NCBI GenBank assembly: GCA_963704145.1
Contig: CAVPHB010000002.1
Coordinates: forward strand, 259,878-323,877
DNA length: 64,000 nt
Source of the DNA: an uncultured Chloroflexia bacterium
GTDB taxonomy: Bacteria > Chloroflexota > Limnocylindria > Limnocylindrales > CSP1-4
Reading direction: 5' to 3'
The notes under the pieces are model-generated. The model searched no databases and was not told the DNA's origin. It saw nothing but the letters and a program-made list of their open reading frames with translations. Below, one piece after another: positions 25,832 through 56,280 of the stretch (the stretch's first letter is position 1; the number at the start of each line of letters is the position of its first letter). The position numbers and the translations under genes are program-made.

Positions 25832-26202
25832 GGCGGCCAGAATACCGGACGGCAGTGCCGGTCCAGCCGAGGTGGCCGACGCGGGCCGCCGGGGGCCGAC
25901 GGGGGCCTGGCGGGGTCAGGTGGGGCCCGGCGAGAGGCTATGCACCAGCTGACTCAACGGATCGCCGAGCAGCCTGGCCCAGCCGCCGCCCTGCTCGCGG
26001 CCGGCTCTCAGGTGGCAATTCAGTCAGCCCGTGCATGACAGCGCGTCCGGGATGGTGCCCGGAGCGCCGCCACGAGCGATTCCGCCTGGCCGAGCGACCG
26101 TTCAGGCACACGCTGACTAAGCCGTTGGCGGGCGGATGGGAGGCGCGGTTCGGCTGTCCGCGACGCGGGCATGTGCTCCGCGCGTGTAGCATCGCGGGTG
26201 AG

Positions 26203-33339: not shown

Positions 33340-33483
33340 ATGGCGCGCTACTTCGGGATCGATCAGGCAAACACCCTGCTGGCCGAGGTGCGGCCGCTGC
33401 TGGAGGGCTTGCGTTCCGACCGCGACCGGGTGACAGAAGTGCCCTTCGGCACTGGTGCAACGGGGCGGCCCGGGCAAACATGA
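33340..33483 (+). pseudogene. Truncated 5' copy of the DUF2203 gene found at 34971..35372.
   Basis: MARYFGIDQANTLLAEVRPLLEGLRSDRDRV matches MASYFGIDQANARLADVRPLLEQLRSDRDRV. I counted 46 of the first 60 nt as identical. The sequence then degenerates and stops. Confidence 0.45.
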
Positions 33484-33611
33484 CGAGCGGAGCGGAAACG
33501 CGACCGCGGTAGCGGCGCGGTCAGCGCCGAGCCGCTGCGCGTCCCGCATGGCTGGTCAGGCGGGGCGGGCGGGGAGTGTCCGGGTCCGCCGCTTGCTGGA
33601 GGCCTTGCGCA

Positions 33612-34943: not shown

Positions 34944-34970
34944 CCCACCGGGTGGTGTCGGAATTCGCAG

Positions 34971-35753: not shown

Positions 35754-37243
35754 CTAGGACTGGTACTCGTCCTCAGGTGGCGGGCGGAAGCGGCCGCGCG
35801 TGATCCACCTGAAGAAGCGGAACGTCTCGGGCCGATGGGAGAACATCCAGCCCACGACGACGAGCAGGACAAAGTCGCCCAGGGCGGCCGTGCCGGCGAC
35901 GAGGTAGCCCAGCTGCTGACCGATCTCGCCCTTGATCGACAGGGCCGGGATTGTCAGCCCGAACAGGCCCACGCGGAAGTACGGCGTGCGCGGCGCCAGA
36001 TCGGCTCGATTGGTGGTCGCGAGCTGCTCCGTGCCGGTCGACCCGCCGGAGATGTAGACGTACTGGCCGACGACCGCCGCAGCGGCGCCGGCGCGCGGCT
36101 CGGGCAGGTCGGTCGCGTCGAGACGCAGCCATTCCTTGATCGTTCCGTCGGTCGCCGCGGGCACCGTCCAGTAGTTGGTCGCGGCGATCGAGCCATCAAC
36201 CGCCTGTCCGCCGAGGACGTACAGCGCGCCAGAGTTGACGAACGTGGTGTGCCCGGTACGGGGCTCAGGCAACGCCGCCGAAGCGGATTGGGCAACGGAC
36301 ACGCCCCAGCCATACGGACGGCCGGTGGCGCTGTTGACCGACGGCTGGCCGTGCGTGTCCAGGCCAAGATAGAAGACTGAGTTCGTGACGCCGCTCGGGC
36401 CGGTGCCGCCGATGACGAACACCGCTGTGCCGGTGGTCGCCGCGCTGGCGTCGGCACGCGGCTCGGGCAGCCGCAGCTCGGTCAGATCGACCCACTTCTG
36501 CAGTTTGGCCTGGCCGGTGGTCGTGAGCGTGGAGTGGTAGGTCGCCGCCGACAGGCCGTTGGCAGTACGACCGCCAAAGATGTACATGCCGGTCCCGGTT
36601 GACACGCCGCTCAGGTCGGCCAGCGCGACGGGCAGGGCCAGGTCGGCAACGGCCTCCCAGCCGGTCAGCATGCCCTGCGCGACGACGCCGCGGAAGGTCG
36701 TGCTGGTGGGCATACCAGCAGCGTCATAGCCGCCCACGACATAAGGCACGCCGTTGAGGGTGAGGACCGCGGCGCCGGCGCGCGGCTCGGGCAAGGCTGG
36801 CCCTTCCTGCCAGGCGGAGAGGTTGCCCCCGGTGGCCCTGGTCAAGAGGACACTGGCGGTGGCGCCGGAGCCGTTCTGGCCGCCGACGAGGTAGAGCGTC
36901 TCGCCCGAGGTGAAAGCGCCGGCTGGACTGCGGCCGCCCGGCAGCGCCAGCTCGGGCGGGCTGGGCTCCCACGGGATGACTGCGCCGGCCGGCGCGGGAC
37001 AGGGCAACGTCGTTGTTCTCGGCCGGACACAGGTTGATCGGGCTGATCGCGTTGTAGCCGACGTCGACCGTCGGCGACACGGTGAGGTAGTAGGCCCGGT
37101 CGGGCAGGTAGCCGAGCAGGAAGATGATCAGCAGGAACCAGAAGGTGGCCTTGATCGACGGCCCACGTCCAGCCGTCGGCGTCGAACAGACCGAAGACAG
37201 CGCGGCGGCGTACGGCCCCCGGCGGAAGCGCCTGCAGGGCCAT
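35754..37243 (-). CDS. Kelch-repeat protein with an N-terminal TM helix and a C-terminal membrane anchor. Two frame switches near the 5' end.
   Basis: The 417-aa ORF 35754..37007 has repeated LPEPR...GG...Y..GG blades. The N-terminus is recovered from two other frames (MALQALPPG..., then IKATFWFLLIIFLLGYLPDRAYYLTV). The switches are at about 37165 and 37008. The ATG abuts the upstream stop (TAGATG). Confidence 0.8.
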
Positions 37244-38380
37244 CTAGGGCGCGGCCGCCGGGGCGACGAGGAAGTCCCCGTGCATCGTCTGGTAGTGACC
37301 CAGCACGGTGCACGCGAACTGCAGGCTGGTCGGGCACGTTGTCGAACGTGTAGGTGAACGTCTTGGTCGCCGCAGTGAACGTGTCGACGCCGGGCAGATC
37401 GGTCTGCTCGGGCGCACTCGACAGCTCGGTCGGCGCTGCCGATGTGGAAGTTGTGCGGGATCGGCGTCTCGTTGATGACGCGGAACTCGACTGTCTCGCC
37501 GGCGACGACGCGATGGTGGTCGACCCGGTCACCACTCACCGGATCGACCCACTGGATGTTCTCGGCGGCGCGAATCTCGATCACGCGCGGGCTGTCGACA
37601 GTGCCCGGGTTGGCGACCGGTGTCGGGGTGCCGCTCGGGGCGGCGCTGGCCGGCGCACGCCAGCACGCGGGCACCGGCGTGGCGTCCGGCGCGGGTGAGT
37701 AGGCGGGATCGCGCCAGCCCTCGACGGCGACTGGCGGCGGAATCGTCGCGGGCGGCCTCCACGTGTTCCGGCTGATAGACGAACTGGGTGTCCTTGCTGG
37801 CGGTGATGAACTTGATGATGTCCTCTACTTCGCGGTAGTTGAGCGGCACCGTCCGGCTCTAGCCAGGCAGGCATGACGCTCTTGGGGTCGCCGCACACGT
37901 AGCGGCCGCCCTCGCTCAGGACCGCGCGCAGGTAGTCCGGGTTGAGATGGCCCGGGCCGGGCAGGCCGCGCGCGGTCAAGGCCGTCGAACAGCTTGGCCT
38001 GGTCGTTGAGCGCCGGGCCGACACCGCCCTGGCCGGTGTCGCCGTGACAACGGGCGCAGTTGGCCAGGTAGAGCGCGTAGCCACGCGACACGTCGGTGAC
38101 GTACTGCTGCTCGCGCCTCGGCCTCGAGCCGACCCTGGACGCCGAGCACGGGCAGGCCGATGTCGTACAGCCAGTAGAGCGGAATGAAGAGCACCAGCAC
38201 CAGCGCGCCGAGGAAGGCGACCATCCGCGCGTTGCCGCTCTGGCGCACGATCTGCGCCGCGCGCTCCTCGGTCAGCCCGACCGTGTGGGCCTGCTGCGCC
38301 GGCGGTGAAGCGCTCGCCGGCTGGCGGGTGCCGGCTGGGGCAGGGATGCCTCGCGCGGGTGACCGCGCCTGCCGGCTCAT
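37244..38380 (-). CDS. Membrane-anchored c-type cytochrome that appears fused to a cupredoxin domain. Heavily frame-switched.
   Basis: The start is MSRQARSP at 38380. It has a TM helix (MVAFLGALVLVLFIPLYWL) and a haem site (YLANCARCHGDTGQG). After a PA-rich linker comes a cupredoxin (VEFRVINETPIPHNFHIG ... LQFACTVLGHYQTMHGDFLV, stop TAG 37244-37246). It is pieced together from three frames by hand. Confidence 0.65.
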
Positions 38381-39096
38381 CCGGCCGCGGCGTCAACTCG
38401 CGGTCTGCGGTACGTCGATCCGCTCACACGCAGCCCTGCGGCGATCGGGCCGGGATCAGACCGGGCTGACCGAGCGGCGACAGGCAGCGGCCCAAGCGTG
38501 ATGCGTGACGTGTCCACGGTCAGCACGCCGTCGTCGATCGTGTGCGCGAAGCGGTCCAGGCTGCGCGGTGCCGGCCCGAGCTCGCGCACCTTGATCCCCA
38601 GCCGGTCGTAGCGCGAGCCATGGCAGGCGCACTCGAACCAGTAGTTGGTGGTGCAGAAGTTGGGCTTGCAGCCGAGGTGCGGGCAGCGCTGATAGAGCGT
38701 CCGAACGTTGGTGTTGAGCCCCTCTCCGTCTGTGCTCGCGCCATCGGAGAAGCCGCGCGTCGGGTCGACCAGCTGGATGTACGCCCGGGCGAGCGGAAAA
38801 TAGGCCGGTGCTCCGTCGGGCAGGCTCGCGCCCTGCACGGCCGGGTTGCCGACGACGAGCGTCGAAGTCGCCCAGCTCGATCGTGCCGCCGAAACCGCGC
38901 GAGAGGTTGGGCCACAGGAAGCCGAGCAGCCCGCCGGTGACCTCGAGCAGCCACAGACCCGACGCCGGCGCCGATCGAGCGCCGGATCAGCGTCCGCCGC
39001 GACAGCCCGGCGGGACGGCCGTGGCGCATCTCGCGCTAGCACGTCGCGCGTCAGCGTCTGCGGCTCCTGCCAGCGGGCGAGCTTCCAGTTACCCAT
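38377..39096 (-). CDS. Rieske 2Fe-2S subunit of a cytochrome bc-type complex, frame-switched.
   Basis: It has CPHLGC...CACHGSRYD boxes. The N-terminal Tat-like segment [13 protein letters not shown] and the TM helix [16 protein letters not shown] lie in other frames, so there are at least 3 switches. Confidence 0.8.
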
Positions 39097-39126
39097 TTCG
39101 GATCACGCGCGGCTGCCAATCGGTCA

Positions 39127-40518
39127 TCACAGGGCGAACCACAGGCCGTTCTCCCAGGGCACGGTGAAGGCGTAGCCCGGGCCGCGGAAGAAGGCGCCCA
39201 GGAAGGTGATGACCAGGCCCGCGGCGGCGAACAGCGTGAAGAGCACGATGCCCAGCTTGCGGTCGGCCGGGCCGCGACGAGCCGCCGTCGCCGCGCGGAC
39301 CGCGGTCGATGTACGGGATGGCGCCGATGGCAATGAAGATGGTCAGGATCGGAATGGCCCCGGCGACGGTCGGGTGGAAGTAGGCCAGCAGCTCCTGGAT
39401 ACCGACCAGGTACCACGGCGCCTTGGCCGCCGCGGGCGTGACGATCGGGTTGGCCAGCTCCTCGAGCGGGGCGTTGACGAAGAAGCCCATCAGCAGCAGG
39501 AAGACGCTCATCATCGCCGCCGCGAAGAACTCGATCGAGAGCAGGTGCGGCCAGGTCATGACCGTGTCGTCGGGTTCCTTCTGGACGCGCACGACGGCGT
39601 CCTGCTTGACCAGCGCCAGCAGTCGGTACGGCTTGGCGGCCATCGGCACGCGCTGCTTGTCGATCTCCGTCGTGCGCCGCTCGGGCGGGGCGGCGGGCAG
39701 CGCCGTGCCGGCGCGGCGCGGCCGCGGCGTGGCTAGGTCGTAGGCGCCGGCAGGTTGGACTTCTCGTCGGTCATCGGCTGTGCTCGTGCTCACAGCGGGC
39801 CCGGAGATGCCGCCGTCCTTGCGGATGCGCCAGAAGTGGACGGCCAGGAAGATGGCGGCGGCCAGCGGCAGCAGGATGACGTGCAGCATGTAGAAGCGGA
39901 GCAGGGTGTTCTGGCTGACCTCGATGCCGCCGAAGATGAGCAGCTGCGAGGGCCGCGACAGGAGCGGCACGTACGAGGCGATGTTGTTGCCGATGGTGAT
40001 CGCCCAGAACGCGATCTGGTCCCACGGCAGCAGGTAGCCGGTGAAGGAAAGGGCGATCGTCAGGAAGAGCAGCAGCGCGCCGACCACCCAGTTGAACTCG
40101 CGCGGCGGCTTGTAGGCGCCGTGGTAGAAGACGCGCATCATGTGCAGGAAGACGAAGAAGACCATCAGGTGCGCGGCCCAGCGATGGATGTTGCGCGTCA
40201 GCAGGCCGAAGGGCACCTCGGCCTGGATGCGCAGGATGTCGTCGTAGGCACGCGTGGCCGAGGGCACGTAGAAGAACATCAGGAACACGCCGGTCACGGT
40301 CAGCACCAGGAAGAAGAAGAACGAGAGACCGCCCAGGCAGAACGTGTAGGCGAACTTGACTGCGTGCGGCGGACGCGGACCGGGTGGAGGTGCAGGAAGA
40401 CGTTGTTCATGACCGCGTAGGCGCGCGATCGCTCGTCCGACGGATACGGCTGACGGAAGAGCGAGCGGAACAGGGCGCTCCGGCGCAGGGCCGTGTCTAC
40501 GCGCTCAAGAAAACTCAA
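39127..40518 (-). CDS. Cytochrome b (fused b6/subunit IV type), frame-switched.
   Basis: The pieces are 40300..40518 (TTG start after GGGAGGA), 39089..40306 ([35 protein letters not shown]) and 39127..39333 (C-terminal helix). Confidence 0.9.
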
Positions 40519-42454
40519 CGAACGTATCCTCCCGCCTCGGCGCGGTTACCGATACCGACCAAACCCAGCTGCGTGTCGCGGTAGCTCTCCTTGTAGAGCC
40601 GCCCGTCGCTGCTGATCTCCTGGAGCTCGAACCGCTCCATGGTAATGGCGTCATACGGACATCGCTTGACGCACAGCGCGCAGCGGATGCAGCGCTCCTC
40701 GTCGAGCACCATCGCCGCGCCGTCGGACCAGCCGTAGGCGTCGACCAGCTCGGGCAGCGGACCCTCCGACTTCATCTGGTTGATGTCGATCATGTGGATG
40801 ACGCCCTCGGGGCAGACGTCGGCGCACGCGCCGCACAGCACGCAGCGGAAGGGGTCGAACCAGATGTTGTAGTTGCACATCAGGCAGCGCGTGCTCTCGG
40901 TGACCGCCTGGCTGGCGCTGTAGCCGCGCTCGACCGGCGTGTTGACGTTGACGTGCGGGTCGGCCGATGGACATGCGCGCCGCGACCGACACCATGGGCA
41001 CGTGGACACGCGGCAGGACGTCGTAGAACTCGGGCATCTCGTGGCTGCGCGAGCTGAGACGATGCGCACGTTGGCCTCGACGTCGACTTCGCGCCGGCCG
41101 GACAGGTAGCGGTCGATCGCGTAGGCGCACTTCTTGCCGTGACCGGCGGCTTCGATCAGCGTCGTCGGACCGGTCACGAAGTCGCCGCAGGCGAAGACGC
41201 CGCGGACGTTCGTCGCGTAGGTGGCCGGGTCGACCGGACCCGGCCGCGGTCGATCTCGAAGTTCGACTCGACCGACAGGAAGGTGTTGTCGGTCGCCTGG
41301 CTGACGCCGGGATGACGGTGTCGGCCTTGATGTCGAACTCGCTGCCCTCGATCGGGCACGGGCGCGCGGCGGCCGGTCGCGTCCGGCTCGCCCAGCCGGT
41401 TGCGGATGAACCTGCACGGCGCGTACGTGGCCGTTCTCGTCGCCCAGGATCTCGACCGGGCTGACGAGGAACTCCATGCGCACGCCTTCGCGCTCGGTCT
41501 CGCCCAGCTCCTCCTCGTCGACGACCAGTTCTGAGCGTGTCCGCCGGTAGGCGATGGTCACGTTCTGGGCGCCGTGGCGCAGGCTGGTGCGCGAGCAGTC
41601 CATGGCGGTGTAGCCGCCGCCGATGACGACCACGTCGGTGCCCACGGACAGCGGCTCGCCCAGGTTGGCGCTCTTCATGAAGTCGACGCCGTACTGGATG
41701 CCGTCGAGGTCGCCCCCGGGATGTCGAGTCGCGATCGGCGTTCATCGCGCCGGCGCAGATCGCGATGCACGTCGAAGTCGCGCTGGAGCTGGTCGAACGA
41801 TGATGTCGACCCCGATCGTGACGCCGTAGATGAACCGCACGCCCAGCCGCTCGACGAGCCGCACGTCCATCTCGATCGCCCGCGCGGCAGGCGGAAGGCC
41901 GGCACGCCGATGAGCATCGTGCCGCCGCCGTACGGGCAGCTCGTCGAAGACGGTCACCTGGTGGCCGGCGACGGCCAGCTCGTGCGCAACGGCGAGGCCG
42001 GCCGGGCCGGCGCCGATGACGCGACCCGCTTGGTATCGCGCGGCGTGATGGCGGCATGTCGTCGGGGATGCCCGATGCCTGGTGCCATTCGACCAGGAAG
42101 CGCTTCATGGCGCGAATCGCGAGCGGCCGATCGATGTCGCCGCGGCGACAGGCGCGCTCGCACGGGCGCCGAGCAGACGTACGCACACATCGCCGCGACC
42201 GGATTCGGCTCGCGCGACAGGATGTAGCCCTCTTCGAAGCGGCCCTCGGCGGCCAGATTCAGGTAGCCGCGACAGTTGGTGCCGACAGGGCACGCTTCCT
42301 GACACTCGATGTTGCACTGCAGCCAGGAGGCATCGACAGGCTGAACCAGGAATTCCTGGTTGGGATCGATGGCCAAGGGATCAGTCCTCGTGGGGCAGGC
42401 TGTGCTCGGTTGCCACCGCGCAGCGATCGTACCATCGCCCTCTCCTGCCGGCAT
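40515..42454 (-). CDS. GltD-like NAD(P)H/FAD oxidoreductase with N-terminal Fe-S cysteines and C-terminal 2x[4Fe-4S] ferredoxin domains. Heavily frame-switched.
   Basis: The fragments carry FEEGYILSREPNPVAAMCAYVCSAPCERACRRGDIDRPLAIRAMKRF, GGGYTAMDCSRT, VFACGDFVTGPTTLIEAAGHGKKCAYAID and CIRCALCVKRCPYDAI. The stop overlaps the cytochrome b start (TTGA). Confidence 0.8.
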
Positions 42455-42558
42455 GGGCGACGTGACCGGCGGTACCGCGTCGGCCCTCCAACCGGTCCCG
42501 TAGACGCCGGCCGGCCACGCGGCCTAGGCTGGCCGCGTGATGGCGACCTACCCCCGGC

Positions 42559-43748
42559 ATGCCCGCCAGCGCGCCATCGGCTGCTGCCCAGGGTCCCTGT
42601 GGCGCGGCCCGCGCCGAGGTCGATAGCCTCTGCGCTGAGGCCGAACGACTGGCCCAGGCCGCCAGCACCCGGCTGAAGCGAGCTGCGCGACGCCAGAGCG
42701 CCAGGCGGCCGAGGTCGTCGAGCCGCGCGACGCCGACGCCCGCGTGCGTGACAGACGCCGGCTGAGCGAGGCAAAGGAGGAGGCGCGGCGCGCCTATCAC
42801 GAGGCGCTCGGCCAGGCCGACGACCAGGGTGCCGTTCAGGACGCGGCGGCCGCCTGGTTGCAGCGAGATCGATCGGCTCAATCGCCAGCTCCAGATCGCC
42901 GATCAGCGCGCCGGAGAGGTGACCGCCCGGGCGGCTGAACTCGAGCGGGTGCTGCCGGGCATCGAGCTCGCCGCTGACGCCGCGCGCATCGCGCCGAGGC
43001 TGCGCAGGTTGCCTGCCTCGAGGCGCGCCGAACGCTGGCCGCGTGCGAGGAAGAGGCCCAGCGGCGGGCCCCGCGGTCGAGCGGCGTTGTCCCGCCGGGC
43101 TCCGTGCAGCTCGCGGTCGGCGCGCAGCCGAACCCCTTCGCCCGCGCTGGGGCCGGCCAAGCACAGGCTGCTACCGCGCTACCCTCGTCGGCCGCCGGCC
43201 AGGTGGCGCCCATTTCGCTGGTGCTGCGCGGCGACCGCCAGACGTTGCTCGGCCTGGCCCTGCGCCTAGCCGACGAAACCGGCGTCGAGGCCGGTCGGCT
43301 GCAGCTGCTGCTGCTCGAGCTGCGCGAGGCAGATCGCCGCTCGCGCGCTGGAAGAGCACGCTCTGAGCTTCGCCGCGGCTCACCCCTTCTGGAGCCAGTT
43401 CATGGCCGACGAGGCGCGCAGGTGGCGGCCAGCCTAGCGTCGATGGGCTATCCGCTTCGACGGCCGGACGGCTGGGTCGACGGCCGCGCGCCAGCGGTCC
43501 GCGATCTGGCCCTGGCCCTGTCGCACTGCGGGCTACGATCCGCGCACGTTGCGCCGGCCGGCCGGACAGGCGGCGATCGACGGGCTGTGGCAGGGCACGC
43601 CGTGCTGGTCGAGGACTACCTAGTTCAGCGCGCGCCCGATCTGTCGCTGGCCCAGTTGATCGACCTGCCTGGGCGCGGGCGCGGCGCGGCTGGGCGAGCT
43701 GTGGGATATGTGGGGCCGGCTGCGGCCCCTGCTCCTGCCGGCCGGCTA
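42559..43748 (+). CDS. Hypothetical coiled-coil protein, frame-switched.
   Basis: It was stitched by eye from 42559..42765, 42744..42938, 42829..43269, 43104..43952 and unlisted frames (…EIDRLNRQLQIADQRAGEV…LGELWDMWGRLRPLLLPAG, then stop). No family recognised. Confidence 0.45.
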
Positions 43749-44498
43749 GCCCAGGCTCACCACTGCGGAAGGACTCAGCGGCCTCGCTGCCGATGCGCCG
43801 GCCATCCTCGCGCCGCCCAGCCGCGCAGCATCTCCTCGAGCTCGTCCGGCTTTCGCAGCTGGCTGACGTGCTCGCGCAGCGCGGCCAGCTTGATCTCCAT
43901 CGTGTCGGTGACGTCGACCCACGCAGTGGGCTTGTCGGTGAAGAAGAGATAGACGACTGCTGGACGCTCCACGGCGCGAGACCCTCGTCGATCACCAGGC
44001 CGCGGAAAGGCCATCGCGTTGCGCGCCGCTGGATAGACGGCATCGATCGCCGCCAGGCCGGCCTGGCGGTGGTCGACGTGCTGCACGAAACCGTCGCCGT
44101 GGATGATGACGGTCGGATCCATGGCCATCGACGGCGTCGGGCGTGAATGCGCCGAATGATGCGCACCAGCTGTTCGCGCAGGGCAAGGTCGTTCTCCAGC
44201 GCCCCGTCGGGCCGATGCAGGAAGTCGACGCCCTCGTAGCCCACCACGGCGGCGGCCGCACGTTGCTCTGTCTCACGGGTGCGGGCCAACTCGAGCGGAT
44301 CGGCATGCGCGTCGTCCGACGCCGGCGTCGCCACTGGTGCAGCACACCAGCGTGCCACCGTGCCGGCCTGCGATCCAGCGATGCGATGCGTGCCGGCGAC
44401 ACCGAAGTCGCCGTCGTCGGGATGGGCCACGATCACCAGGGCGCGCTCCGGCCGCTCGTCGTGTGGCTGTCGGTTATGTCGCGCGGGATGTCGCTCAC
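43746..44498 (-). CDS. PIG-L/LmbE-family deacetylase, frame-switched.
   Basis: It has ALVIVAHPDDGDFG, then DAVMAMDPTVIIHGDGFVQHVDHRQAG and TMEIKLAALREHVSQL, spread over several frames. The stop shares the GCTAGC with the convergent gene. Confidence 0.7.
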
Positions 44499-44617
44499 GG
44501 CCTGCCCAACTACGTTTCAATCTCAAGATCGACGCGGTCCGTGGGCAATTGCGCAGATAACGACTATGTGATGCTTCGCGGCCGAGGCATCGCTCGTCTC
44601 CCCCCACGGGCGATGCC

Positions 44618-45212
44618 TCATGTTGTCTGGCCGCCAGGCGCGCACGCCTGCCGGCGATCGAGTGCCTCGATCACTTCGCCGGCGTGGCCGGCCGGCTTGA
44701 CCCGGGCCAGACGCGGCGATGCGGCCCTCCGGATCGATCAGGAATGTGGCCCGCTGGACACCCATGTAGACCTCTGCCGTAGTTCGGTCTTCTCGACCCA
44801 CGTTCCGTACGTCTCGGCGGCCGCATGATCCTCGTCGGCGAGGAGCACGAAGGGCAGGCCGAACTTGCGCTTGAAGGCGGCCTTGCTGTCACTGCCCGAG
44901 CACGCTCACGCCCCAGACCTCCGCGTCGCGGCCGCGGATGTTCTGGGTGGCGTCCCGGAATTCGCACGCCTCGGTGGTGCAGCCCGGCGTGTCGTCCTTG
45001 GGATAGAAGTAGAGCACCGTCCATGGCCACGTCGCTCGCTCAGGCGCCGCTCGGCGCCGCATCGTCGAACAGTGCGATCTCGGGTGCGACGTGGCCGACT
45101 GCGGCAGCGCCGGCTCGACTCGTCCTGGGGCTGGCTCTCCGCTGGTCGTCGCTTCGATCGCGACGCCCTCGACGATAGGGAACCATACGGCGCTGCGCCC
45201 GCCAGGGGCCAC
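44618..45212 (-). CDS. bcp: Thiol peroxidase Bcp (peroxiredoxin), frame-switched.
   Basis: It has [22 protein letters not shown], then [21 protein letters not shown] (hand translation of an unlisted frame) and [14 protein letters not shown] in other frames. Confidence 0.75.
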
Positions 45213-46262
45213 CTACGGCGCCGGCTCGGGCAGCACCATGATCCCGGCCGGAGCCACGCGCAGGCGGAGGCGCTGCCCAACGGTGGGCGCTGCCGGCTGA
45301 CCGACATGCATCTCGAGCGACGGCGCGTCGCGCCCGATCGCGCGCAGGCGCAGGACCTGGTGTGGTCGCCCCGGAAGGTGCACGCCTCGACCTGGGCCTC
45401 GATCGGTCCGGCCGGGTCTAGTTCGATGGCCTCCGGTCGGATGAGCAGCCGTCAACGCCGGCGGGCAGCGCCGCCGGCAACTCCAGGCTGCCCCACGGGG
45501 TGACCGCTCGGTGCCGTCGACGATCGGCGAGCTGCAGATGTTGGTCAGGCCCAGGAAGCGCGCCACGAACTCGTTCGGCGGCGAGTGCCACAGCTCGTGC
45601 GGCGGCATGACCGCCTCAAGCCGGCCCGCGCGCAGAACCGCCACCCGGTCGCCCACGGCGAGCGCCTCCTCCTGGTCGTGGGTCACGTAGATGATCGGCA
45701 GGCGCAGACGCGGCGAACAGGCCGGCCAGCTCGTCCGAGCAGCCGCGTCGCGCAGCGCCGCGATCCAGCGCACCCGAGCGGCTCGTCGAGCATCAGCAAG
45801 CGCGGGGTTGGCGCCAGCGCGCGAGCCAGGGCGACGCGCTGCTGCTCGCCGCCCGACAGCTGCGCCGACTGAGCGCCGCGTCGTAGCCGGGCAGCCCGAC
45901 GAGCTCGAGCACCTCGGCCACCCGCGCGTCCGACCGCCGCCGGCGCGTCAGGCCGCGCATCTGGAGCCCGAACGCCACGTTGCCATGCACGTCGCGCTGC
46001 GGAAAGAGGACGTAGTCCTGGAACATCAGCCCGAAGCCGCGCCGTGAGCGGGCACGCTCGACCAGGTCCGGCGCCGTCCCAGCTGATGCGGCCCGCGCGG
46101 CCAGCGGCTCGAGCCCGGCAATCGCGCGCAGCAGCGTCGACTTGCCCGATCCGCTCGGCCCCAGGACCGCCAGGCGCTCGCGCGGCGCGCACCTCCAGGC
46201 TGACCCGTCGAGGGCCGATCTGGCGGTCCGTAGTGGACGCTCACTCCGGCCAGGCTGAGCAT
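45213..46262 (-). CDS. thiQ: ABC transporter ATP-binding subunit (thiamine/iron-type importer), frame-switched.
   Basis: Walker A ([15 protein letters not shown]) by hand translation, [33 protein letters not shown] and [11 protein letters not shown], spread over three frames. Confidence 0.8.
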
Positions 46263-47930
46263 CAGGCTGCCCCGCGCTGGTCGGTCGCAGCCGGTCGAAG
46301 AGCGAGCGCCGCGCTGGCGGTCACGAGCATCAGTAGCGTGGCCATCGCCATCGCCTGGCCGAACGCGAGCGCGCCCGGCTGGCTGAGCAGGCGAAAGATG
46401 GCGATCGGGCATGGTCGGCGCGTCGGGCCGGACGATGAACAGCGTGGCCCCGAACTCGCCCAACGACACGGCAAAAGCGAAGCGGCGCCGACCAGCGCCG
46501 CCCGCCTGACGATGGGTAGGTCGATCTGCGCGCCACGTCCGCGCGGGCGACGCACCGAGCACCGCGGCGGCGTCGCGCAGGCGCTGGTCGACGGAACGCA
46601 TCAGCGGCACCGTCGCGCGTACCACGAATGGCAGCGCGACGAGCGCGTGGGCGATCGGGATGAGCAACGGCGAGACGCGCAGATGCGATCGGCAGCTGGC
46701 CGAGCGAGAGCAGGAAGCCAAAGCCGACGATCACCGCCGAAGTGCCCAGCGGCAGCATCAGCAGCGCGTCGAAAGCGTGGGCCAGGGCGTCCCGGCGGTA
46801 GGCGATGACCGCCGCCGCGAGCAGGCCGAGCGGCAGGCTGATGGCCGTCGCCGCGGCGGCGAAGACGAGCGAGTTGCGCGATGGCCTCGATCGGTGGCAC
46901 GAACAGAGCGCCGCGCGGGCGCTGTCGCCGAACAGCGCCAGGAAGTTGTCGAGCCCGTAGCCGCGTCGGCCCGACCAGCGCTCGCTCGACCAGCACGCGC
47001 CAGCGGCAGGCCGAGCAGCAGCGAGCATCAGCGCGCCAGGTTGGCGCCCACGAAGCGCCGACTCGCGCGCGGCCGCGCGGCCGTCGCGCGGCACTGCGCC
47101 CGCCGGTCGCAAGGCGCTGGCTGCGTTCGCCGTCTTCTGCTGATAGCGGCGCGTAGCACGACCAGCAGCGCGCCGAGCGCGACCATCTGGAGCAGCGCCA
47201 GAGTGGCCGCGACGCGGCAGGTCGAGCAGCTGCGCCGTCTGGCGATAGATCTCGACCTCGAGCGTGGCGAAGTGCGGCCCGCCGAGCAGCAGGACGACGC
47301 CGAACGAGGTGAACGTGAACAGGAAGACGATCGATGCCGCCGAGGCGATGGCCGGCCGGAGCAAGCGGCAGCGTCACCCGGCGGAACGCCTGCCAGCGGC
47401 GTCGCGCCCAGCATCGCGCGCCGCCTCCTCGAGGCGCGGATCGAGCTGCGCCCACACGCCGCCCACGACGCGCAGCACGACCGCGTAGTTGTAGAAGACG
47501 TGCGCGAGCAGGATCGCCCAGATGGTGTGCTCGAGGCGCATGCCGAGCGGGCTGCGCGGGCCGAGCAGGGCCAGAAAGGCGGCCGCCACGACGACCGTGG
47601 GCAGCACGAAGGGCACGATCGTCAGGGCGCTCGAGCAGGCGCCGGCCGGGGAACTCGAAGCGCGCGAAGACATAGGCGCCGGGCAGTGCCACGAGGACGG
47701 TCAGCAGCGGTCGAGAGGGCCGCCTGCCAGAGGGTGAACCAGACACGTTTCGAGCACGAACGAGCGGCCCAGGATCGCGGCTATCGCGGCCGGCTCGAAC
47801 GTGCCGCCCGGGGCCAGGCCGGCGACCAGGATCGCGCCGAGCGGATAGACGAAGAAGAGCAGCGCGAAAGCGAGCGGCGCGGAGGCCAACGCAAGGGTCA
47901 GCAGGCCGCGCCGGGCGAGTGGCGTCCGGC
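46262..47930 (-). CDS. thiP: Double-domain ABC permease, frame-switched. The 5' end is approximate.
   Basis: Hydrophobic fragments in many frames, e.g. [44 protein letters not shown] and [20 protein letters not shown]. The stop overlaps the ATPase ATG. Confidence 0.7.
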
Positions 47931-47932
47931 GG

Positions 47933-49000
47933 CTAGCGGAGAACGACGTCGGTCCACTCCTCGATCCAACGCTCGCGCTGGACCGCCGATGACGGCCGGG
48001 TCCATCACGAGTGGCTGGCTGACCTGCGACGGCGTGCTCAGCGAAGAGCGGCGGCAGCTGGACCGTGGTGCTGGCCGGGAAGACGAACATGCTGAGCGGG
48101 ATGTCCTGCTGGAAAGCGGCGGACAGCATGAAGGTCGATGAACGCCTCGGCCGCCTCGGGCTGCCTGGGCGCCGGCCAGCACGCCGGCGAACTCGACCTG
48201 GCGGAAGCAGCCGTCGTCGACTACTCCGGTCGGGGCCTGGGCTGGCTGAGGATCGGCGAAGTAGACCTCGGCGGCCGGACTGGTGGCGTACGAAACGACG
48301 ATCGGCCGATCGCCCTCGCCCGAGCCGCCCGAGAACGAACCGTAGTAGGCCTCTTCCCAGCCAGCCGCGACAAGCACGTCGTTGTCGCGCAGCTCGCGCC
48401 AGTAGTCACGCCACGTGTAGTCGCACCGTCCGTCGCCAAAGCGGACGATCGTCGCGAGCAGGAAGGCCAAGGCCGGGCGAGGAGGTGGCCGGGTTCTCGA
48501 CGACGAGCATGCCCCGGTAGGCCGGCGCGGTCGAGGTCCTCCAGCCGGGCAGGTGGGGCAGTGGCGTGGCCAAATACGGCGCGGTCGTAGTTGACACAGA
48601 CGTCGCCGAAGTCGATCGGTGCGACCCTATCCCGGCCCGTGGCCGGGCGCAGCGCGTCGGGCACGGCCTCGAGCGCCGGCGGAGCTGATAGGGCGCAAAG
48701 ATGCCGGCCTCGAGCGCGCGCGACAGGAACGTGTTGTCGACGCCATAGAGGACGTCGGCGAGCGGGTTGTCGCGGGTCAGGATGGCCTGGTTGACGATCG
48801 ATCCGGCGTCCCCGTTCTTGAGCACCTCGACGCTCACCCCCTTCTGCGCCTCGAAACGGTCCATCAGCGACTCGGCGATGGCGAACGAGTCGTGCGTCAT
48901 CAGCGACCAGCCGGGTGGGCTGTGAGGTTGGTCCGCCACACGCGGCCAGGATCACGGCCAGGACGACGGCCACGGCGCATGTGCTGCGCAGCGCGGTCAC
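47933..49000 (-). CDS. thiB: Thiamine-type ABC substrate-binding lipoprotein, frame-switched.
   Basis: Lipoprotein signal MTALRSTCAVAVVLAVILAAC, then LMTHDSFAI...VLKNGDAGSIVNQAILTRDNPLADVLYGVDNTF, IDFGDVCVNYD and IVVSYATSPAAEVYF, in several frames. Confidence 0.7.
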
Positions 49001-49688
49001 CTGCCGCGGAGCTCGCCCGTCTTGCGCGTGTGGACCACGGCCAGCCGTCCGCTGCGCCGAGCGACGGTGGCCCGCGCGCCGGTCGAGTCTCGTTGGACAG
49101 GCCGCGGGTCGGGCCCATCAGCAGCGCCTCGTCGTGCAGTGGGTAGGCCAGGCCGGTCGTGGTCACGCCTTCGACACGCTTGCTCAGCGCCAGCAGCGAG
49201 ACGTAGTCGCCGGCCGCCCCGTTCAGTGCGAGGCTCGCCGGTCCACCGTCACCGATCACGCGGACCACGCTGGCTGAGTCGGCAAGGCAGATGTCGCAGG
49301 CCGGCCAGCTCGGGCAGACGCGAGCAGCAGCAGGTTGGCGAGCGTGTGCTCGAGGCGCTTCCCGCCGAATGCGCCGACGATGACGAATGCGGTTCGCCCC
49401 GCGCTGCGATCGCCTCACGCAGCGGCGAGCTCGGTGTCGCTCTCGTCCTTGGTCGGCTGATGGACGATCACCTCGGCGCCCGCCGCGCGCAGCCGCAGCG
49501 ACGTCGGGCGCCGAGCGAATCGCCGTCTCCGACGACCACGTCGGGCTGCAGCCCGATCGTCTGCGCCTTGCGCGCACCACCGTCGGCGGCGACGACCAGA
49601 ACCCGCTCGTCCGGCTCACGGCCGAGCAGGCGCTCGACCATCGCCACGCGCGGGACACGTCTCCGTCGGCGATGATCAGGGCCTTCAA
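48997..49688 (-). CDS. thiN: Thiamine diphosphokinase, frame-switched.
   Basis: TTG start at 49688 after GGAGG. It has KALIIADGDV, VVGDGDS, TKDESDTELA (hand translation) and GDYVSLLALSKRVEGVTTTGLAYPL. The stop overlaps the thiB GTG (GTGA). Confidence 0.7.
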
Positions 49689-49696
49689 CGAACGAA

Positions 49697-49820
49697 CCTC
49701 CGTGCTGGCGGGACGGAGGCGCAATGCTCGAGGACTCCCTTCGCTGGTCCGAACCAGATCAGGTTCCTAGGGTCTGCGGGTTGGTCCCGCACTCTCAGCG
49801 CCGCGTCGGCGCTCCCCTGT
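49697..49820 (-). promoter_or_regulatory. TPP (THI-box) riboswitch with a Shine-Dalgarno-sequestering helix.
   Basis: The minus strand reads GGGGAGCGCC...GGCGCTGAGAGTGCGGGACCAACCCGCAGACCCTAGGAACCTGATCTGGTTCGGACCAGCGAAGGGA, which matches the THI-box consensus. Downstream, CCTCCGT...ACGGAGG pairs over the thiN ribosome-binding site. Confidence 0.85.
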
Positions 49821-49861
49821 CCCGTGTTCAGTTGAGCGCCAATTCTACGCCCGGGGACCTA

Positions 49862-50476
49862 ATGCGGCCGGTGCTAGACTCGGCGGCGTGCCCGGGATCC
49901 CCGCTGCGACTCAACGGGTGTCGACGCTGCCGCGCGCAAGGGCGTCCAAATCGAGGTGACCGTCTTCGAGCAGTCGACGCATACCGCCGAGGAGGCGGCC
50001 GCAGGCCGTCGGCGCCGAGGTGGGCCAGATCGTCAAGAGCCTGGTCTTCGTCTCCGGCGAGCGCCGACGACCTCCATCCGTGCCTGGTCCTGGCGAGCGG
50101 CGCCAACACGGTCGACCTCGCGCTCCTGTCGGCCTCGCTGACCGACCCGCGCCTGCGCCGTGCGACGGCCGAAGAGGCGCGCGAGCTGACCGGCTTCAGC
50201 ATCGGCGGCATCCCGCCTTTCGGCCACGTACGCCCGATCCGGACGGTGATGGATCCCGACCTCGGCCGCTTCGAAGTGGTGTGGGCAGCAGCGGGCACAC
50301 CCAACGCCGTCTTCCCCCTCACGCCGGCGACGCTGCGCGTGCTGGCCAACGCGGTCGTTACTCCGATCGCCGCCACGTCGAGCGCCGCGCAGCAGGAGGC
50401 GGCCGGAGCCCCGACAGCGCGTGACAGCCGCGCGGCACCCCGCGCCGCAGGCCGAGGCGGATGGCACTGCCGGTAG
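49862..50476 (+). CDS. YbaK/EbsC-type aminoacyl-tRNA deacylase, frame-switched. The start is approximate.
   Basis: It has VTVFEQSTHTAEEAA, VGQIVKSLVFV and LVLASGANTVDL...TGFSIGGIPPFGH...VVWAAAGTPNAVFPL, across three frames. Confidence 0.6.
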   Translation: MRPVLDSAACPGSPLRLNGCRRCRAQGRPNRGDRLRAVDAYRRGGGRRPSAPRWARSSRAWSSSPASADDLHPCLVLASGANTVDLALLSASLTDPRLRRATAEEARELTGFSIGGIPPFGHVRPIRTVMDPDLGRFEVVWAAAGTPNAVFPLTPATLRVLANAVVTPIAATSSAAQQEAAGAPTARDSRAAPRAAGRGGWHCR

Positions 50477-51045
50477 CGCACGAGGTGGAACGGCTATCGA
50501 TCCAGTATCCCGGCGGGATCGCCGCGCGTTATCCGCTGGGCGGGGAGCGCCCACGCGGCTGACGTCTTCGGCGTCTCCGAAGCGGCGGGCGAGCTGACCG
50601 ACCACGGGCCCCCGCTCGGCGCCCATGCGGGCCGGCTGTGCCGGCTCGAGCTACACGTCGAGGCCCGGCGGGCAGCATGGACCGCGCGCTTGCGTCGCCC
50701 GTCTTCGACGAGCCGCAGGGCGTGCTGTGGGACAGCGCCGGCCTGTTGCTGGTCAAGTACGGCTTCGTGCTGTACGCATTGGTCGCCCGAACCGGCGAGC
50801 TGTCAATGGAGTCACGCGCAGCGGCACACCTGCGCTGGCCGTGCTGGCCTCGTCGCGCCTGGACCACGTCCTGATGCAGACCGAGGTCGAGACGATCGCG
50901 CTGCGCGGCGACGGCTCGGTCGCCTGGCGAGCGGCCCACGTCGGACGTGATCGTCGGACGCGCAGCTGATCGCCGGTCGGCTGGACCTGACGACCTACGC
51001 CGGCGCGGCACGTCTATCTCGATGCGCGCAGCGGCCAGCAGGCCT
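50461..51045 (+). CDS. Hypothetical protein, frame-switched, with poorly defined limits.
   Basis: Protein-like stretches occur in alternating plus frames, e.g. PVFDEPQGVLWDSAGLLLVKYGFVLYALVARTGEL and LMQTEVETIALRGDGSVAWRAAHV. No family recognised. Confidence 0.3.
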
Positions 51046-51301
51046 GAGCAATTGGCCCGGCGTTGTGCGGACACCGGCGGCTCGCGCGGATTGTGGAGAA
51101 AGAGTGGATAGCTGCGGGCCGAGCGTTCGAAACGGTGGACAACGTTGCTTGACGGCCGCGTCGGGCGGTCGCTACCGTTGGCGACCAGCCCGGAGGGGCC
51201 AGAAGCGAAGCTAGCGACTGCGATCACATCAAGGTCCACGCCTCGTGAAGGTTCCTCCGGGTTTTCGCTTGCCCCGGGCCGATTGAGCGAGGGACTGACC
51301 G

Positions 51302-52024
51302 ATGGCCATTGCCCCGCTGCTCGCTCTGCTCGGATTGGTCAGCCTGGCCGCGACCGCGCTGCTGCTGCGCTCGGTCGGACCACGCTACCGGCTTGGACGG
51401 TTGCTGGCCGGCACGCCCGAGGTCTCGATCGAGGAGGCGATCGAGCTGGCCGGCGCGGCCGGGCACGTATACGTGCGCGTGACCGGCCGGATCAGCAGCG
51501 AAGAGGAGTTCCCCGACGAGCACGACCGGCCGCTGGTCTTCCGCCGCACGCGCATCGAGCTGAGCGGACCGCGGGCGGTGGCGGACCGTGCTCGACGAGC
51601 GCGAGGCTGTGCCGTTCAGCGTCGAGGCGCGCTCTGCGCTCATAGCCATCGACGACGCGGCGCTGGCCGACGGGCTGGTGGCATCCCGCGCGAAGCGGCC
51701 GGGCGGGCGCAGGACCTGGGCGCTGACATGGCCCAGGCGCTGCCCCGCGAGTACGATCCGCAGGCCCCCGCCCGGCTGGTGATCGAGCAGCTCTCGGCCG
51801 TTGAACATGCCACCGTCTGTGGACGGCCGGTGCTGCACGACGGGCGGGCGACGCTAACCGAGGGCAGCGGCCGGCCGCTGATCGTGACCACGCTCGAGGC
51901 GCCGGCCGCCATGCGCCTGCTCGCCCGCGGGCATCGGACACGAGTGGTGGCGGCGGCGCTGCTGCTCTTCGCCGGCCTGGGCATGCTCGGGGCGGCCGCC
52001 GTGGCGCGCCTGCTGGGCGTCTGA
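51302..52024 (+). CDS. Two-TM membrane protein, possibly GIDE-like. The ORF is intact but an internal ~130-nt stretch is out of frame.
   Basis: 240-aa ORF with an N-terminal and a C-terminal TM helix. The alternative frame 51588..51782 gives a far more protein-like middle (LDEREAVPFSVEARSALIAIDDAALADGLV). Confidence 0.6.
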   Translation: MAIAPLLALLGLVSLAATALLLRSVGPRYRLGRLLAGTPEVSIEEAIELAGAAGHVYVRVTGRISSEEEFPDEHDRPLVFRRTRIELSGPRAVADRARRARGCAVQRRGALCAHSHRRRGAGRRAGGIPREAAGRAQDLGADMAQALPREYDPQAPARLVIEQLSAVEHATVCGRPVLHDGRATLTEGSGRPLIVTTLEAPAAMRLLARGHRTRVVAAALLLFAGLGMLGAAAVARLLGV

Positions 52025-53378: not shown

Positions 53379-53570
53379 ATCGCCGCGTGCGGCTGTCGCA
53401 CGCCGGCCGCAGCGGGCATAAGGACCGGCACTCGTGGGACCTTTGCGTCAGGTGCTCAGCGGGGTGCACCTGTCTACGCTCACGCCGAGCTCTGATCGGG
53501 GGACCGATCTGACATTTCCTCCAGTGGGAGACAGGTCACGAACGCCACGACCACCGGCAGTTTCCTCACA

Positions 53571-56280
53571 GTGCGCGACGCCGCGCAGTTGCTCGGAGTC
53601 CACGCCAATACCGTCCGCTCGTGGACGGACCAGGGCCGGCTCGGCTGTCTGCGCATCAATCGGCGCGGCGATCGGCGCTACCCGCGGGCAGAGATCGAGC
53701 GCTTTCTGGCCGGCGCCGGCGAGCCGTCGCTGCGTCGTGACGCCGACATGCCGGACGGTGACTCCGTGGCGCGCCTGCTGGCGCGAACCGGCGAGCTGGC
53801 GGCAGAGGCCGTCGACTTGCCCACGGCGCTGCGCGAAATCGGTGTGCTTTTGTGCAGCACGGGCGGCTACCAGGCGGCGACCATCATCGATGAGGACGGC
53901 GCGGCGTTCCGGCTTGTCGGCCGGCTGATCGGCGACCGCCGGCTGTGGCAGCGGGTCCGCCACGCCGGAATCCCCCAGCTTGGCCGCCCGCGCGGCGCCG
54001 CCGGTCGCTATCGCGCGGCGCTTCCGATCCGGGCCGGGCAACGTCACCTCGCTGTGTTGATGCTCGAGGGCACGTGGGACACGCGCACGGGCGACGAGCC
54101 ACGCCTGTTGACCGCGATCGCCGACCAGCTCGAGATGTCGCTGCGCCTGGCCGAGCGAAGTGCCGCGGTGCTCGAGGCTGGCCGGCGTGCCCAGCTGCTG
54201 CTGTCGATCGGCGCGGAGATGGGGGCGCAACTGGACCCACGACAGGTGCTCAGCCAGCTCATCGACCGCGCGGCCGAGCTGTTCCACGCCGATCACGCCG
54301 CGGTCTTCCGGCACACGTCCGACGGCCTCCTGCACGCGGAGGTCACGCGCAATCTCTCGCCCGAGTACTGCCAGGTAGTAGAGCACGCGCCGTCACATCC
54401 AATGGCCGCGCGCGCATTCGACGAGGGGCGCGTCATCAGCGCCACGAACCACGCCGATGATCCGCGCGCCATCAGCCTGCGCCCGGCCTTGCTGCGCGAG
54501 GGGATCAATACCGTGACCGTTGCGCCGCTGCTGGCCGATGGTCTGCGACTGGGCGTGCTGGACCTGTATCACGACACGCCCTACCACTGGAGCGCAACCG
54601 ATCTGGATCTCCTGGAGCGCCTCGCCCGGCAGGCGGCGACCGTGCTCCGTGGCGCGCAGAACTACGTCCAGATGGCAAGCTGGGCGGCTCAACTGCAGTC
54701 GATCCAGCAGCTCGGCGCGCGGCTCACCCGGCTGCGAACGATCACCGAGATCGGCCAGGCCATCTGTACCGAACTCACCCAGCTGATCGACAGCCACAAC
54801 GTGCGCGTCTATCGGATCGAGGGCGACGAGTGCCTGCCGATCGCCTGGCGCGGCGAGGTGGGCGAGTACGAGGCGGAGCACGGCGAGCAACTGCAAGCTC
54901 GAAGGTAGGCGAGGGCATCACCGGCTGGGTGGCGCGCCACGGCCTGGCACAGAACGTGGGCGATGCGGCCCACGACCGGCGCGCCAAGACGATCCCCGGC
55001 ACAGAAGACGACCTCGACGAGTCGCTGCTGCTGGCGCCGATGCTGTACGAGGACGAGACGATCGGCGTGATCGTGCTGGCCAAGCTGGGGCTCGAGCAGT
55101 TCGGCGCCGACGATCTGCGCCTGCTCGAGATCTACGCCTCGATCGCCGCCCAGGCGATGGCCAACGCGGACGCCACTGAACGCCTGCACGACCAGTCCGA
55201 GACGCTGGCCCGCCAGGTGCACAGCCAGCGCGAGCTGTTGCGGGTGACCGAATCAATCCTGAGCACGCTGGACACGCAGGCGCTGCTCGAAGAGATCGCC
55301 GTCAAGCCTCGAGTCGCTGGTCGAGGTCGATAACATCTGCGTCAGCCTGCACGACCAGGCCGCGCGAATGGTGCGCCCTATCTTCGCCCGCGGCGTGCAC
55401 GCCGCCAATTACCTGGCCCAGTCGCTGCCCGACGATCAGGGCGAGGCCAGCCATGTCATCCGGACCGGCGAGCCGCTGCTCATCCTCGACGAGCTGCGCG
55501 ATCCGCGCGTGGCGCACTTCGACGCCACCGGCCCACTGGCCGGGGCCCTGATCGTGGCGCCATTGCGTGCCGGGGAGGTAATCCAGGGCGTGCTGACTAT
55601 CGAACGGCTGGGCGAGCAGGCACGCTTCAGCCAGGGCGAGTTCGAGCTCGTCAAGCTGTTCGCCGCGCACGTCTCGATCGCGCTGCGCAACGCCGCCACG
55701 CACCGCGCGGTCGAGTTGCGAGCCGAGACCGACCGGCTGACCGGACTGTGGAATCACGGCGCCCTGATCGAGCGCATCGACCAATTGACTGCGGAGCGCA
55801 GCCGGTTCGCGATGCTGATGGTCGATCTCGACTTCTTCAAGCGCCACAACGACCGCTTCGGTCACCTGGCGGGCAACGTGATGCTTCAGCGGGTGGCCGG
55901 GCTGCTCCGCGGCTGCAGGACGCGATTCGGACCACGCGTTCCGTTTCGGGGGCGATGAGTTCGCGCTGCTGCTGCCCAACACCGGCCTGGCCGGCGCGCG
56001 CATCGTGGCCGAGCGAGTCCGCGTCGCAGTCGCCCAGGTCAACGACGACCGAACCGCGAACACGCCGCTGTCCTGCTCGATCGGCATTGCCGTGTACCCC
56101 AAGGACGGCCGCGACGGGGCGAGCATCATCCTCGCCGCGGACCGGGCGTGCTACGCCGCCAAGCGTGCCGGACGCGATCGCATCGCCAGTGCTGCCGAGG
56201 GTCTGACGCTGGCCGCAGAGTTTAGACCAACGGAGCCCACGCCGCTCGAATCGAGCCCGGCGACCTATCCCGTGGCCTGA
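53571..56280 (+). CDS. Excisionase/MerR-type HTH + multiple GAF domains + GGDEF diguanylate cyclase. Three frame switches.
   Basis: HTH: VRDAAQLLGVHANTVRSWTDQGRL. GAF-like blocks: VGEGITGWVARHG and others. GGDEF core: TGLWNHGAL...FAMLMVDLDFFKRHND..GHLAGN...FRFGGDEFALLLP. The switches are at about 54890, 55306 and 55910. Confidence 0.85.

What the first reader, a model, noticed from the sequence alone, without database searches (positions are those of the whole stretch)
37000..51700. A ~14.7-kb block with dozens of frame switches, whose edges fall inside genes
From about 37.0 kb (inside the Kelch gene) to about 51.7 kb (inside the two-TM gene), essentially every gene must be read in two or three alternating frames, often switching every 100-300 nt. 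The affected genes are the cytochrome c/cupredoxin, Rieske, cytochrome b, GltD-like, LmbE, Bcp, thiQ, thiP, thiB, thiN and YbaK genes. Between switches the translation still shows textbook motifs: [37 protein letters not shown] and KDESDTE. Outside the block, multi-kb genes are intact or carry a single lesion, including the 3.5-kb cyclase, malic enzyme and the 2.1-kb TPR protein. The block includes respiratory and cofactor-salvage genes, and its boundaries ignore operon structure. A locally unpolished or low-coverage assembly segment is the simplest explanation. A recently inactivated region, or a strain-mixture consensus, are the alternatives. The count of switches is a by-eye estimate, not a computation.
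Basis: partly seen in the sequence, partly recalled or inferred. Interest (0 to 1): 0.6.

Follow-up and report, generated by a model that had tools for sequence, protein, structure and literature searches.

The report
Patch of assembly indel errors
The 14.7-kb stretch really is riddled with about a hundred one- or two-base frame-breaking insertions and deletions, but they look like consensus errors of an error-prone genome assembly rather than biology.

Summary
I aligned orthologous proteins from 7 same-genus genomes to the window with a frameshift-aware method.

- **Density.** There are 97 reproducible frameshift sites in 37,009-51,682 (7.2 per kb) against 9 in 16.9 kb of covered flank (0.53 per kb). 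The best-fitting edges are 37,000 and 51,700, both inside genes.
- **Type of lesion.** DNA alignments give 117 window-only indels that are not multiples of 3 (93 insertions, 24 deletions) in the block, against 10 in the flanks. There are no extra substitutions and almost no in-frame stops. There is no homopolymer context and no motif.
- **Not unique to the block.**
  - A sample of 64 orthologues elsewhere in the genome carries 157 frameshifts.
  - Two other patches are as dense.
  - The essential rpoB gene has 11 single-base insertions.
  - The 2.6-Mb, 8-contig genome scores only 51% complete.

This is an assembly artefact, most likely a poorly supported or unpolished long-read consensus. It is not a pseudogene block. 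No public run holds the sequence, so read depth could not be checked.

The parts
37000..51700 (.). Indel-dense block. It holds 97 robust frameshift sites, or 117 window-unique indels that are not multiples of 3 by DNA alignment. About 0.85% of positions are affected.
35757..37243 (-). Kelch-repeat gene that holds the left edge. It has 2 frameshifts (37009, 37156) in its 5' 240 nt and none in the remaining 1.24 kb.
37259..38698 (-). Cytochrome c domain protein. It has 10-13 frameshifts, depending on the reference.
38427..39102 (-). Rieske [2Fe-2S] protein with 4 frameshifts (38473, 38863, 38957, 39033).
39130..39780 (-). Conserved protein of about 216 aa with no Pfam match. It has 2 frameshifts (39268, 39734).
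39797..40545 (-). Cytochrome b with 1 frameshift (40367, a missing base). Identity to the orthologues is 86-94% aa.
40518..42437 (-). GltD-like oxidoreductase (Pyr_redox_2, Fer4_20, Fer4). It has 14-16 frameshifts and is 87-90% aa identical to the orthologues once the shifts are bridged.
42548..43743 (+). Protein of about 400 aa with no Pfam match. It has 10-11 frameshifts, but only 2 good references.
43749..44487 (-). PIG-L/LmbE-family deacetylase with 7-10 frameshifts.
44627..45144 (-). AhpC/TSA (Bcp-type) peroxiredoxin with 7-8 frameshifts.
45231..46566 (-). ABC transporter ATPase (ABC_tran, TOBE_2) with 11-15 frameshifts.
46258..48004 (-). ABC permease (BPD_transp_1) with 17-21 frameshifts. 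This is the most lesions of any gene in the block.
47936..49173 (-). Solute-binding protein (SBP_bac_6) with 7-9 frameshifts.
49018..49777 (-). Thiamin pyrophosphokinase (TPK_catalytic, TPK_B1_binding) with about 8 frameshifts.
49849..50416 (+). YbaK / aminoacyl-tRNA editing domain protein with 3 frameshifts (49922, 50004, 50071).
50482..51044 (+). ORF of about 200 aa with a weak PQQ_2 match. It has 7 frameshifts, seen with one reference only (G004).
51178..52021 (+). Protein of about 279 aa with no Pfam match that holds the right edge. It has 3 frameshifts (51304, 51566, 51682) and none in its last 340 nt.
26137..28600 (+). Flank gene, transketolase-like, with 3 frameshifts (27103, 27584, 28138). 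The flanks are not error-free.
53535..56262 (+). Flank gene, HTH-GAF-GGDEF protein, with 3 frameshifts (54904, 55310, 55914).

Best explanation
The block is a stretch of poor consensus in an error-prone, most likely long-read, metagenome-assembled genome. About 0.85% of its positions carry a spurious 1-2 nt insertion or, less often, a deletion. That breaks every gene into short alternating frames. The rest of the assembly has the same kind of error at lower and variable density.

Shown: the indels are private to this assembly, they are insertion-biased, they come without substitutions, and they occur genome-wide, including in rpoB.

Inferred: the cause is a local drop in read support, or a missed polishing step, over roughly one long-read length (about 15 kb). 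This is why the edges are sharp and ignore gene and operon boundaries. The organism most likely has intact genes here for the cytochrome bc-type complex, the ABC transporter, thiamin pyrophosphokinase, Bcp and YbaK.
For: 1. Private to this assembly. The 97 robust sites are absent from every covering relative (2-7 references per site). Per-reference counts of unique indels not a multiple of 3 in the same alignments are mostly 0. In soil-metagenome contigs of related organisms, the rows shown at 40367, 40971, 41056, 41729/41739 and 41880 carry the opposite state to the window (12 rows shown, 103 not shown).

2. Error-like spectrum.
- There are 93 insertions against 24 deletions. Of the insertions, 78 are single bases and 13 are two bases (the other two are 4 and 5 bases).
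- The inserted single bases are G29, C28, A12, T9, which matches the composition of the block.
- Of the 78 single-base insertions, 60 do not touch an identical base.
- No motif surrounds the sites (at most 0.11 bits per position).

3. No decay signal.
- At columns conserved among the references, the window differs at 6.4% in the block and 6.9% in the flanks. It is no more divergent than each relative taken as the odd one out.
- In-frame stops are 0-1 per gene.
- Bridged identity to the orthologues stays at 86-94% aa for cytochrome b and the GltD-like gene.

4. Genome-wide occurrence.
- Of 64 orthologue alignments elsewhere (76.7 kb), 41 carry at least one frameshift. The total is 157 (2.0 per kb): 104 +1, 22 +2, 25 -1 and 6 -2.
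- Two other patches are as dense. G000:C1:33750-48600 has genes with 7-27 frameshifts and 26 robust sites in 4.57 kb. G000:C2:367500-382650 has 6-13 frameshifts per gene of about 0.9 kb.
- rpoB (C7:94247-97617) has 11 frameshifts, all +1, no stops, and is 91% aa identical to the single 1162-aa open frame in G009.

5. The genome is 2.6 Mb in 8 contigs but only 51% complete, whereas genus relatives of 2.4-2.7 Mb score about 90%.

6. A reference-free codon-phase GC amplitude is 0.165 in the block against a genome median of 0.255. It correlates with measured frameshift density (Spearman -0.61). Nine separate stretches are as low or lower.
Against: - No reads were available. No public run holds more than 6% of the sampled words, so low depth or lack of polishing is inferred, not shown.
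- The sequencing platform and assembler are unknown.
- Only 23% of the single-base insertions sit next to an identical base, against 52% expected for random placement. I cannot explain this, and it does not match the homopolymer-length errors usually described for polished nanopore data.
- By the amplitude measure the block is in the worst 1.7% of 14.7-kb windows, so it is an extreme patch, not a typical one.
- The genome-wide sample used one reference genome, so some of its events may be reference-side or alignment artefacts.
Confidence: 0.92

Rival explanations
1. Strain-mixture consensus. Several co-occurring strains were collapsed in this stretch, and the consensus step produced spurious indels where their reads disagreed. 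This is still an artefact, but caused by heterogeneity rather than low depth.
For: The assembly is a metagenome bin, as shown by the 51% completeness and 8 contigs. Patchy quality with sharp edges could follow strain-variable segments.
Against: Collapsed strains should also give mosaic substitutions. The window shows no excess of differences at conserved columns in the block (6.4% against 6.9%). The same lesion type hits highly conserved genes such as rpoB. This explanation cannot be separated from low depth without reads.
Confidence: 0.06
2. A genuine, recently inactivated block: the organism really carries about 100 frameshift mutations in these 16 genes.
For: The lesions are sharply confined and no second intact copy of the block exists in the assembly (only the self-match and weak paralogue matches in G000).
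Against: - There is no excess of substitutions and almost no nonsense codons beside about 117 indels.
- Insertions outnumber deletions 4 to 1, and all but four of the 117 indels are 1-2 nt. This is opposite to the deletion bias I recall for bacterial pseudogenes (recalled, not from a call).
- The same lesions occur in 41 of 64 sampled genes elsewhere, and 11 times in essential rpoB.
- The edges cut through genes.
- The block includes a respiratory complex that is conserved in all 31 genomes searched, G000 included.
Confidence: 0.015
3. Recoding: the indels are real and are bypassed by programmed ribosomal frameshifting, or by insertion/deletion editing of the transcript.
For: After the shifts are bridged, the encoded proteins are highly conserved (86-94% aa for cytochrome b and the GltD-like gene).
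Against: There is no shared sequence motif at the sites (at most 0.11 bits). The sites are not conserved in any relative. Both +1, +2, -1 and -2 shifts occur. Density varies by place in the genome and not by gene.
Confidence: 0.005

Closest known systems
Frameshift-causing indel errors in long-read (meta)genome assemblies. This is the problem addressed by proovframe (10.1101/2021.08.23.457338) and Kastor (PMC12007338), and discussed for nanopore MAGs in PMC9262707. I saw only the search listing and the start of each abstract.
   Same: Small indels fragment genes into alternating frames. They are detectable by comparison with intact orthologues, and they lower apparent genome completeness.
   Different: Here the errors are concentrated tenfold in a sharply bounded 14.7-kb patch. 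They are insertion-biased and avoid homopolymers, whereas the nanopore abstract in PMC9262707 speaks of indels derived from homopolymer regions.
Bacterial pseudogene clusters, or genome decay in host-restricted bacteria (recalled knowledge, no call).
   Same: Many neighbouring genes are interrupted by frameshifts.
   Different: Real decay brings substitutions, stop codons and larger deletions, and it spares essential genes. None of that is seen here.

Membership tests
Assembly/consensus indel-error patch (artefact) | The indels are private to this assembly and absent from all close relatives at the same sites. | tested here: met
   97 robust sites are each supported by at least half of the 2-7 covering references. 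Unique indels per reference in the same alignments are mostly 0.
Assembly/consensus indel-error patch (artefact) | The same lesion type occurs in essential single-copy genes and across the genome. | tested here: met
   rpoB has 11 +1 insertions. 41 of 64 sampled orthologues carry frameshifts. Two other dense patches exist. Completeness is 51%.
Assembly/consensus indel-error patch (artefact) | Indels occur without accompanying substitutions or nonsense codons. | tested here: met
   Differences at conserved columns are 6.4% in the block against 6.9% in the flanks. There are 0-1 in-frame stops per gene.
Assembly/consensus indel-error patch (artefact) | Low read depth, or poor read support for the indels, in the block. 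| not testable with these tools
   No public run holds the stretch (best share 0.06). The contigs that were laid come from related organisms, not from the source.
Genuine pseudogene block | Relaxed selection: excess substitutions and nonsense codons, larger deletions and a deletion bias. | tested here: not met
   There is no substitution excess. Insertions outnumber deletions 93 to 24. 111 of the 117 indels are 1-2 nt; four deletions (4, 4, 14, 16 nt) and two insertions (4, 5 nt) are longer.
Programmed frameshifting / recoding | A shared slippery or signal motif at the shift sites, and conservation of the sites in relatives. | tested here: not met
   Relative entropy is at most 0.11 bits at any of 11 positions around the 78 insertions. 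No relative shares a site.

The most novel reading that the evidence does not exclude
The roughly 100 small indels are real. In that case this bacterium would carry a sharply bounded segment that has been struck by an insertion-biased local mutational process, or that is expressed through mass frameshift bypass or editing. Patches like it would exist elsewhere in the genome, including in rpoB.
Probability: 0.01. Interest if true: 0.85.

Novelty: not a real feature. Interest (0 to 1): 0.06.

Why it matters
The practical consequence concerns the quality of this genome record.

- Gene calls in the window's 37.0-51.7 kb, and in about a third of the assembly by the codon-phase proxy, are unreliable.
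- The completeness score is an underestimate.
- Any claim of pseudogenes or of a lost respiratory or thiamin-salvage function in this organism would be false.

The frameshift-bridged reading shows an ordinary, conserved gene set that the same-genus genomes share.

Tried and rejected
- **Crude methods superseded.** A first GC3 phase string and chaining of blastx matches only hinted at the pattern. They undercounted shifts because the segments between shifts are short. I replaced them with a frameshift-aware protein-to-DNA alignment, which I validated on a test case with one deleted and one added base.
- **Noisy reference ORF set.** ORFs of G002 picked by GC3 alone were noisy, and G002 has frame changes of its own. 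I therefore used seven references and required agreement between them.
- **Public reads.** Laying runs X1-X4 gave only short contigs of related organisms. Their depth and coverage say nothing about the source assembly or its habitat.
- **GC content as the driver of the patches.** I rejected this. Window 12-21 kb is equally GC-rich (0.70-0.73) but has a high codon-phase amplitude (0.317).
- **Earlier notes of this scan.** The look-up returned nothing for this genome under 'frameshift'.
- **Platform attribution.** I searched the literature for error profiles and saw listings only. I did not read the papers and draw no platform conclusion from them.
Full report
**What the window is.** The window is G000:C2:259878-323877, from a 2.6-Mb assembly of 8 contigs with 69% GC. 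A search of 30 relatives plus G000 itself showed that the assembly scores only 51% complete. Same-genus genomes of 2.4-2.7 Mb score about 90%. Window 20-64 kb is syntenic with the same-genus genomes, apart from about 30.7-35.0 kb and 58.25-61.18 kb. Window 1-20 kb has no syntenic reference and was not tested with references.

**Checking the observation.** A simple codon-phase GC string and chained blastx matches suggested frame changes both inside and outside the block, but they were too coarse. I therefore wrote a protein-to-DNA aligner that allows shifts of 1 or 2 nt. I tested it on an ORF with one base removed and one added. I then aligned the orthologue ORFs of seven relatives (G002, G004, G009, G011, G013, G014, G017) to the window.

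- Events were clustered within 20 nt, which gave 144 clusters.
- I kept the 106 clusters seen with at least 2 references and at least half of the covering references. The 38 dropped clusters are listed.
- Of the 106, 97 lie between 37,009 and 51,682 and 9 lie outside.
- Per sequence covered by at least 2 references, this is 7.2 per kb (13.4 kb) against 0.53 per kb (16.9 kb).
- A two-changepoint likelihood scan returns 37,000 and 51,700 as the best edges. The support intervals are 36,700-37,150 and 50,100-52,000, and the lnL gain is 53.
- Median spacing of sites in the block is 104 nt.

The left edge falls inside the Kelch gene: it has two shifts in its first 240 nt and none in the remaining 1.24 kb. 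The right edge falls inside a 279-aa gene with no Pfam match. One detail needs correcting: three flank genes carry 2-3 frameshifts each, so the flanks are not clean.

**Nature of the lesions.** I made DNA multiple alignments of 14 block genes and 7 flank genes with their orthologues. The counts of window-unique indels that are not multiples of 3 are as follows.

| Region | Aligned length | Insertions | Deletions | Total | Per kb |
|---|---|---|---|---|---|
| Block | 13.7 kb | 93 | 24 | 117 | 8.5 |
| Flanks | 11.55 kb | 8 | 2 | 10 | 0.87 |

The difference has a binomial p of 1.4e-20. Further properties:

- Of the block insertions, 78 are single bases (G29, C28, A12, T9, like the local composition) and 13 are two bases (the other two are 4 and 5 bases).
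- Of the 78 single-base insertions, 60 touch no identical base, 16 make a run of 2 and 2 make a run of 3.
- There is no sequence motif around them (at most 0.11 bits per position).
- The share next to an identical base (23%) is below the 52% expected for random placement. I cannot explain this.
- At columns where all references agree, the window differs at 6.4% in the block and 6.9% in the flanks. It is no more divergent than any relative taken as the odd one out.
- In-frame stops are 0-1 per gene.
- After the shifts are bridged, cytochrome b and the GltD-like gene are 86-94% identical in amino acids to their orthologues.

**Is the block unique in the genome?** It is not.

- I fetched up to 20 kb from each of 20 contigs of G009. 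That yielded 184 reference ORFs, 75 alignments and 64 orthologue-like alignments (at least 55% identity and at least 100 aa) covering 76.7 kb of G000. They carry 157 frameshifts (2.0 per kb): 104 +1, 22 +2, 25 -1 and 6 -2. 41 of the 64 genes are hit, and density ranges from 0 to 16 per kb.
- A reference-free measure is the amplitude of GC across the three codon phases in 600-nt windows. It is 0.165 in the block against a genome median of 0.255. It correlates with measured frameshift density (Spearman -0.61).
- By that measure the block is in the lowest 1.7% of 14.7-kb windows. Nine separate stretches, including the block itself, are as low or lower.
- I checked two of the other stretches with references. 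G000:C1:33750-48600 has genes with 7-27 frameshifts and 26 robust sites in 4.57 kb, mostly +1. G000:C2:367500-382650 has 6-13 frameshifts per gene of about 0.9 kb.
- rpoB, an essential single-copy gene, is one 1162-aa open frame in G009 but is split into many pieces in G000. My aligner finds 11 frameshifts there, all +1, no stops, at 91% amino-acid identity.

**Reads.** Laying four soil-metagenome runs gave only short contigs of related organisms. In the 12 indel rows shown (103 more were not shown), the rows at 40367, 40971, 41056, 41729/41739 and 41880 coincide with my sites. At those sites the contigs carry the state of the relatives, not of the window. This agrees with the reference comparison, but it is not evidence about the source sample.

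**Interpretation.** Several results together show that the lesions are consensus errors and not mutations.

- The indels are private to this assembly.
- They have an insertion-biased 1-2 nt spectrum.
- They come without substitutions or stop codons.
- They occur throughout the genome, including in rpoB.
- The genome scores half-complete at full genome size.

The tenfold local excess has sharp edges about 15 kb apart that ignore genes. It is best explained by a step change in read support or polishing over roughly one long-read length. This last step is inference, and I cannot name the platform or assembler.

The problem class is well known. I saw the search listings and abstract starts of 10.1101/2021.08.23.457338, PMC12007338 and PMC9262707.

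I rate the other readings low.

- Genuine gene decay would need substitutions, nonsense codons, larger deletions and sparing of essential genes. The deletion bias of bacterial pseudogenes is recalled knowledge, not from a call.
- Recoding would need a motif and conserved sites.
- A strain-mixture consensus remains possible as the trigger of the poor consensus. It is still an artefact.

**Verdict.** The block is not a real biological feature, and interest is low.

Noticed in passing
window 58250-61184: A stretch of about 2.9 kb with lower GC (about 0.60 against 0.70) has no counterpart in any of the 7 relatives, although both sides are syntenic. It holds a 273-aa ORF with a matrixin/Peptidase_M10 match (58545-59363, minus strand) and a 647-aa ORF with no Pfam match. 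It may be a strain-specific insertion.
   Followed up: partly
window 30700-35000: This is a second stretch without synteny to the relatives. The 760-aa and 455-aa ORFs there have no Pfam match.
   Followed up: partly
window 2-3502 (-): A long RHS-repeat ORF of at least 1166 aa runs off the window's start and is intact over 3.5 kb. The intact 1172-aa cyclase/AAA_16/TPR protein is at 12883-16398 (-).
   Followed up: partly
G002 (L009-L013), syntenic 40 kb: The single-contig relative G002 shows 9 frame changes of its own against the window's frames. It is probably error-prone too and is a poor sole reference.
   Followed up: partly
G000:C7:94247-97617: rpoB of this assembly carries 11 single-base insertions. 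Contig C7 also has the longest low-amplitude stretches (C7:247350-312600) and a lower GC (0.668) than the other contigs.
   Followed up: partly
relatives G019-G030: Genomes of the same order but a different family are only 1.0-1.4 Mb at 87-93% completeness. That is less than half the size of this genus, yet they retain the cytochrome b / GltD-like segment.
   Followed up: no
window 37000-51700: The spurious single-base insertions avoid positions next to an identical base (23% observed against 52% expected). This is an unusual error signature. It might reflect a consensus made in run-length-compressed space, or polishing that fixed run lengths only. This is speculation.
   Followed up: partly
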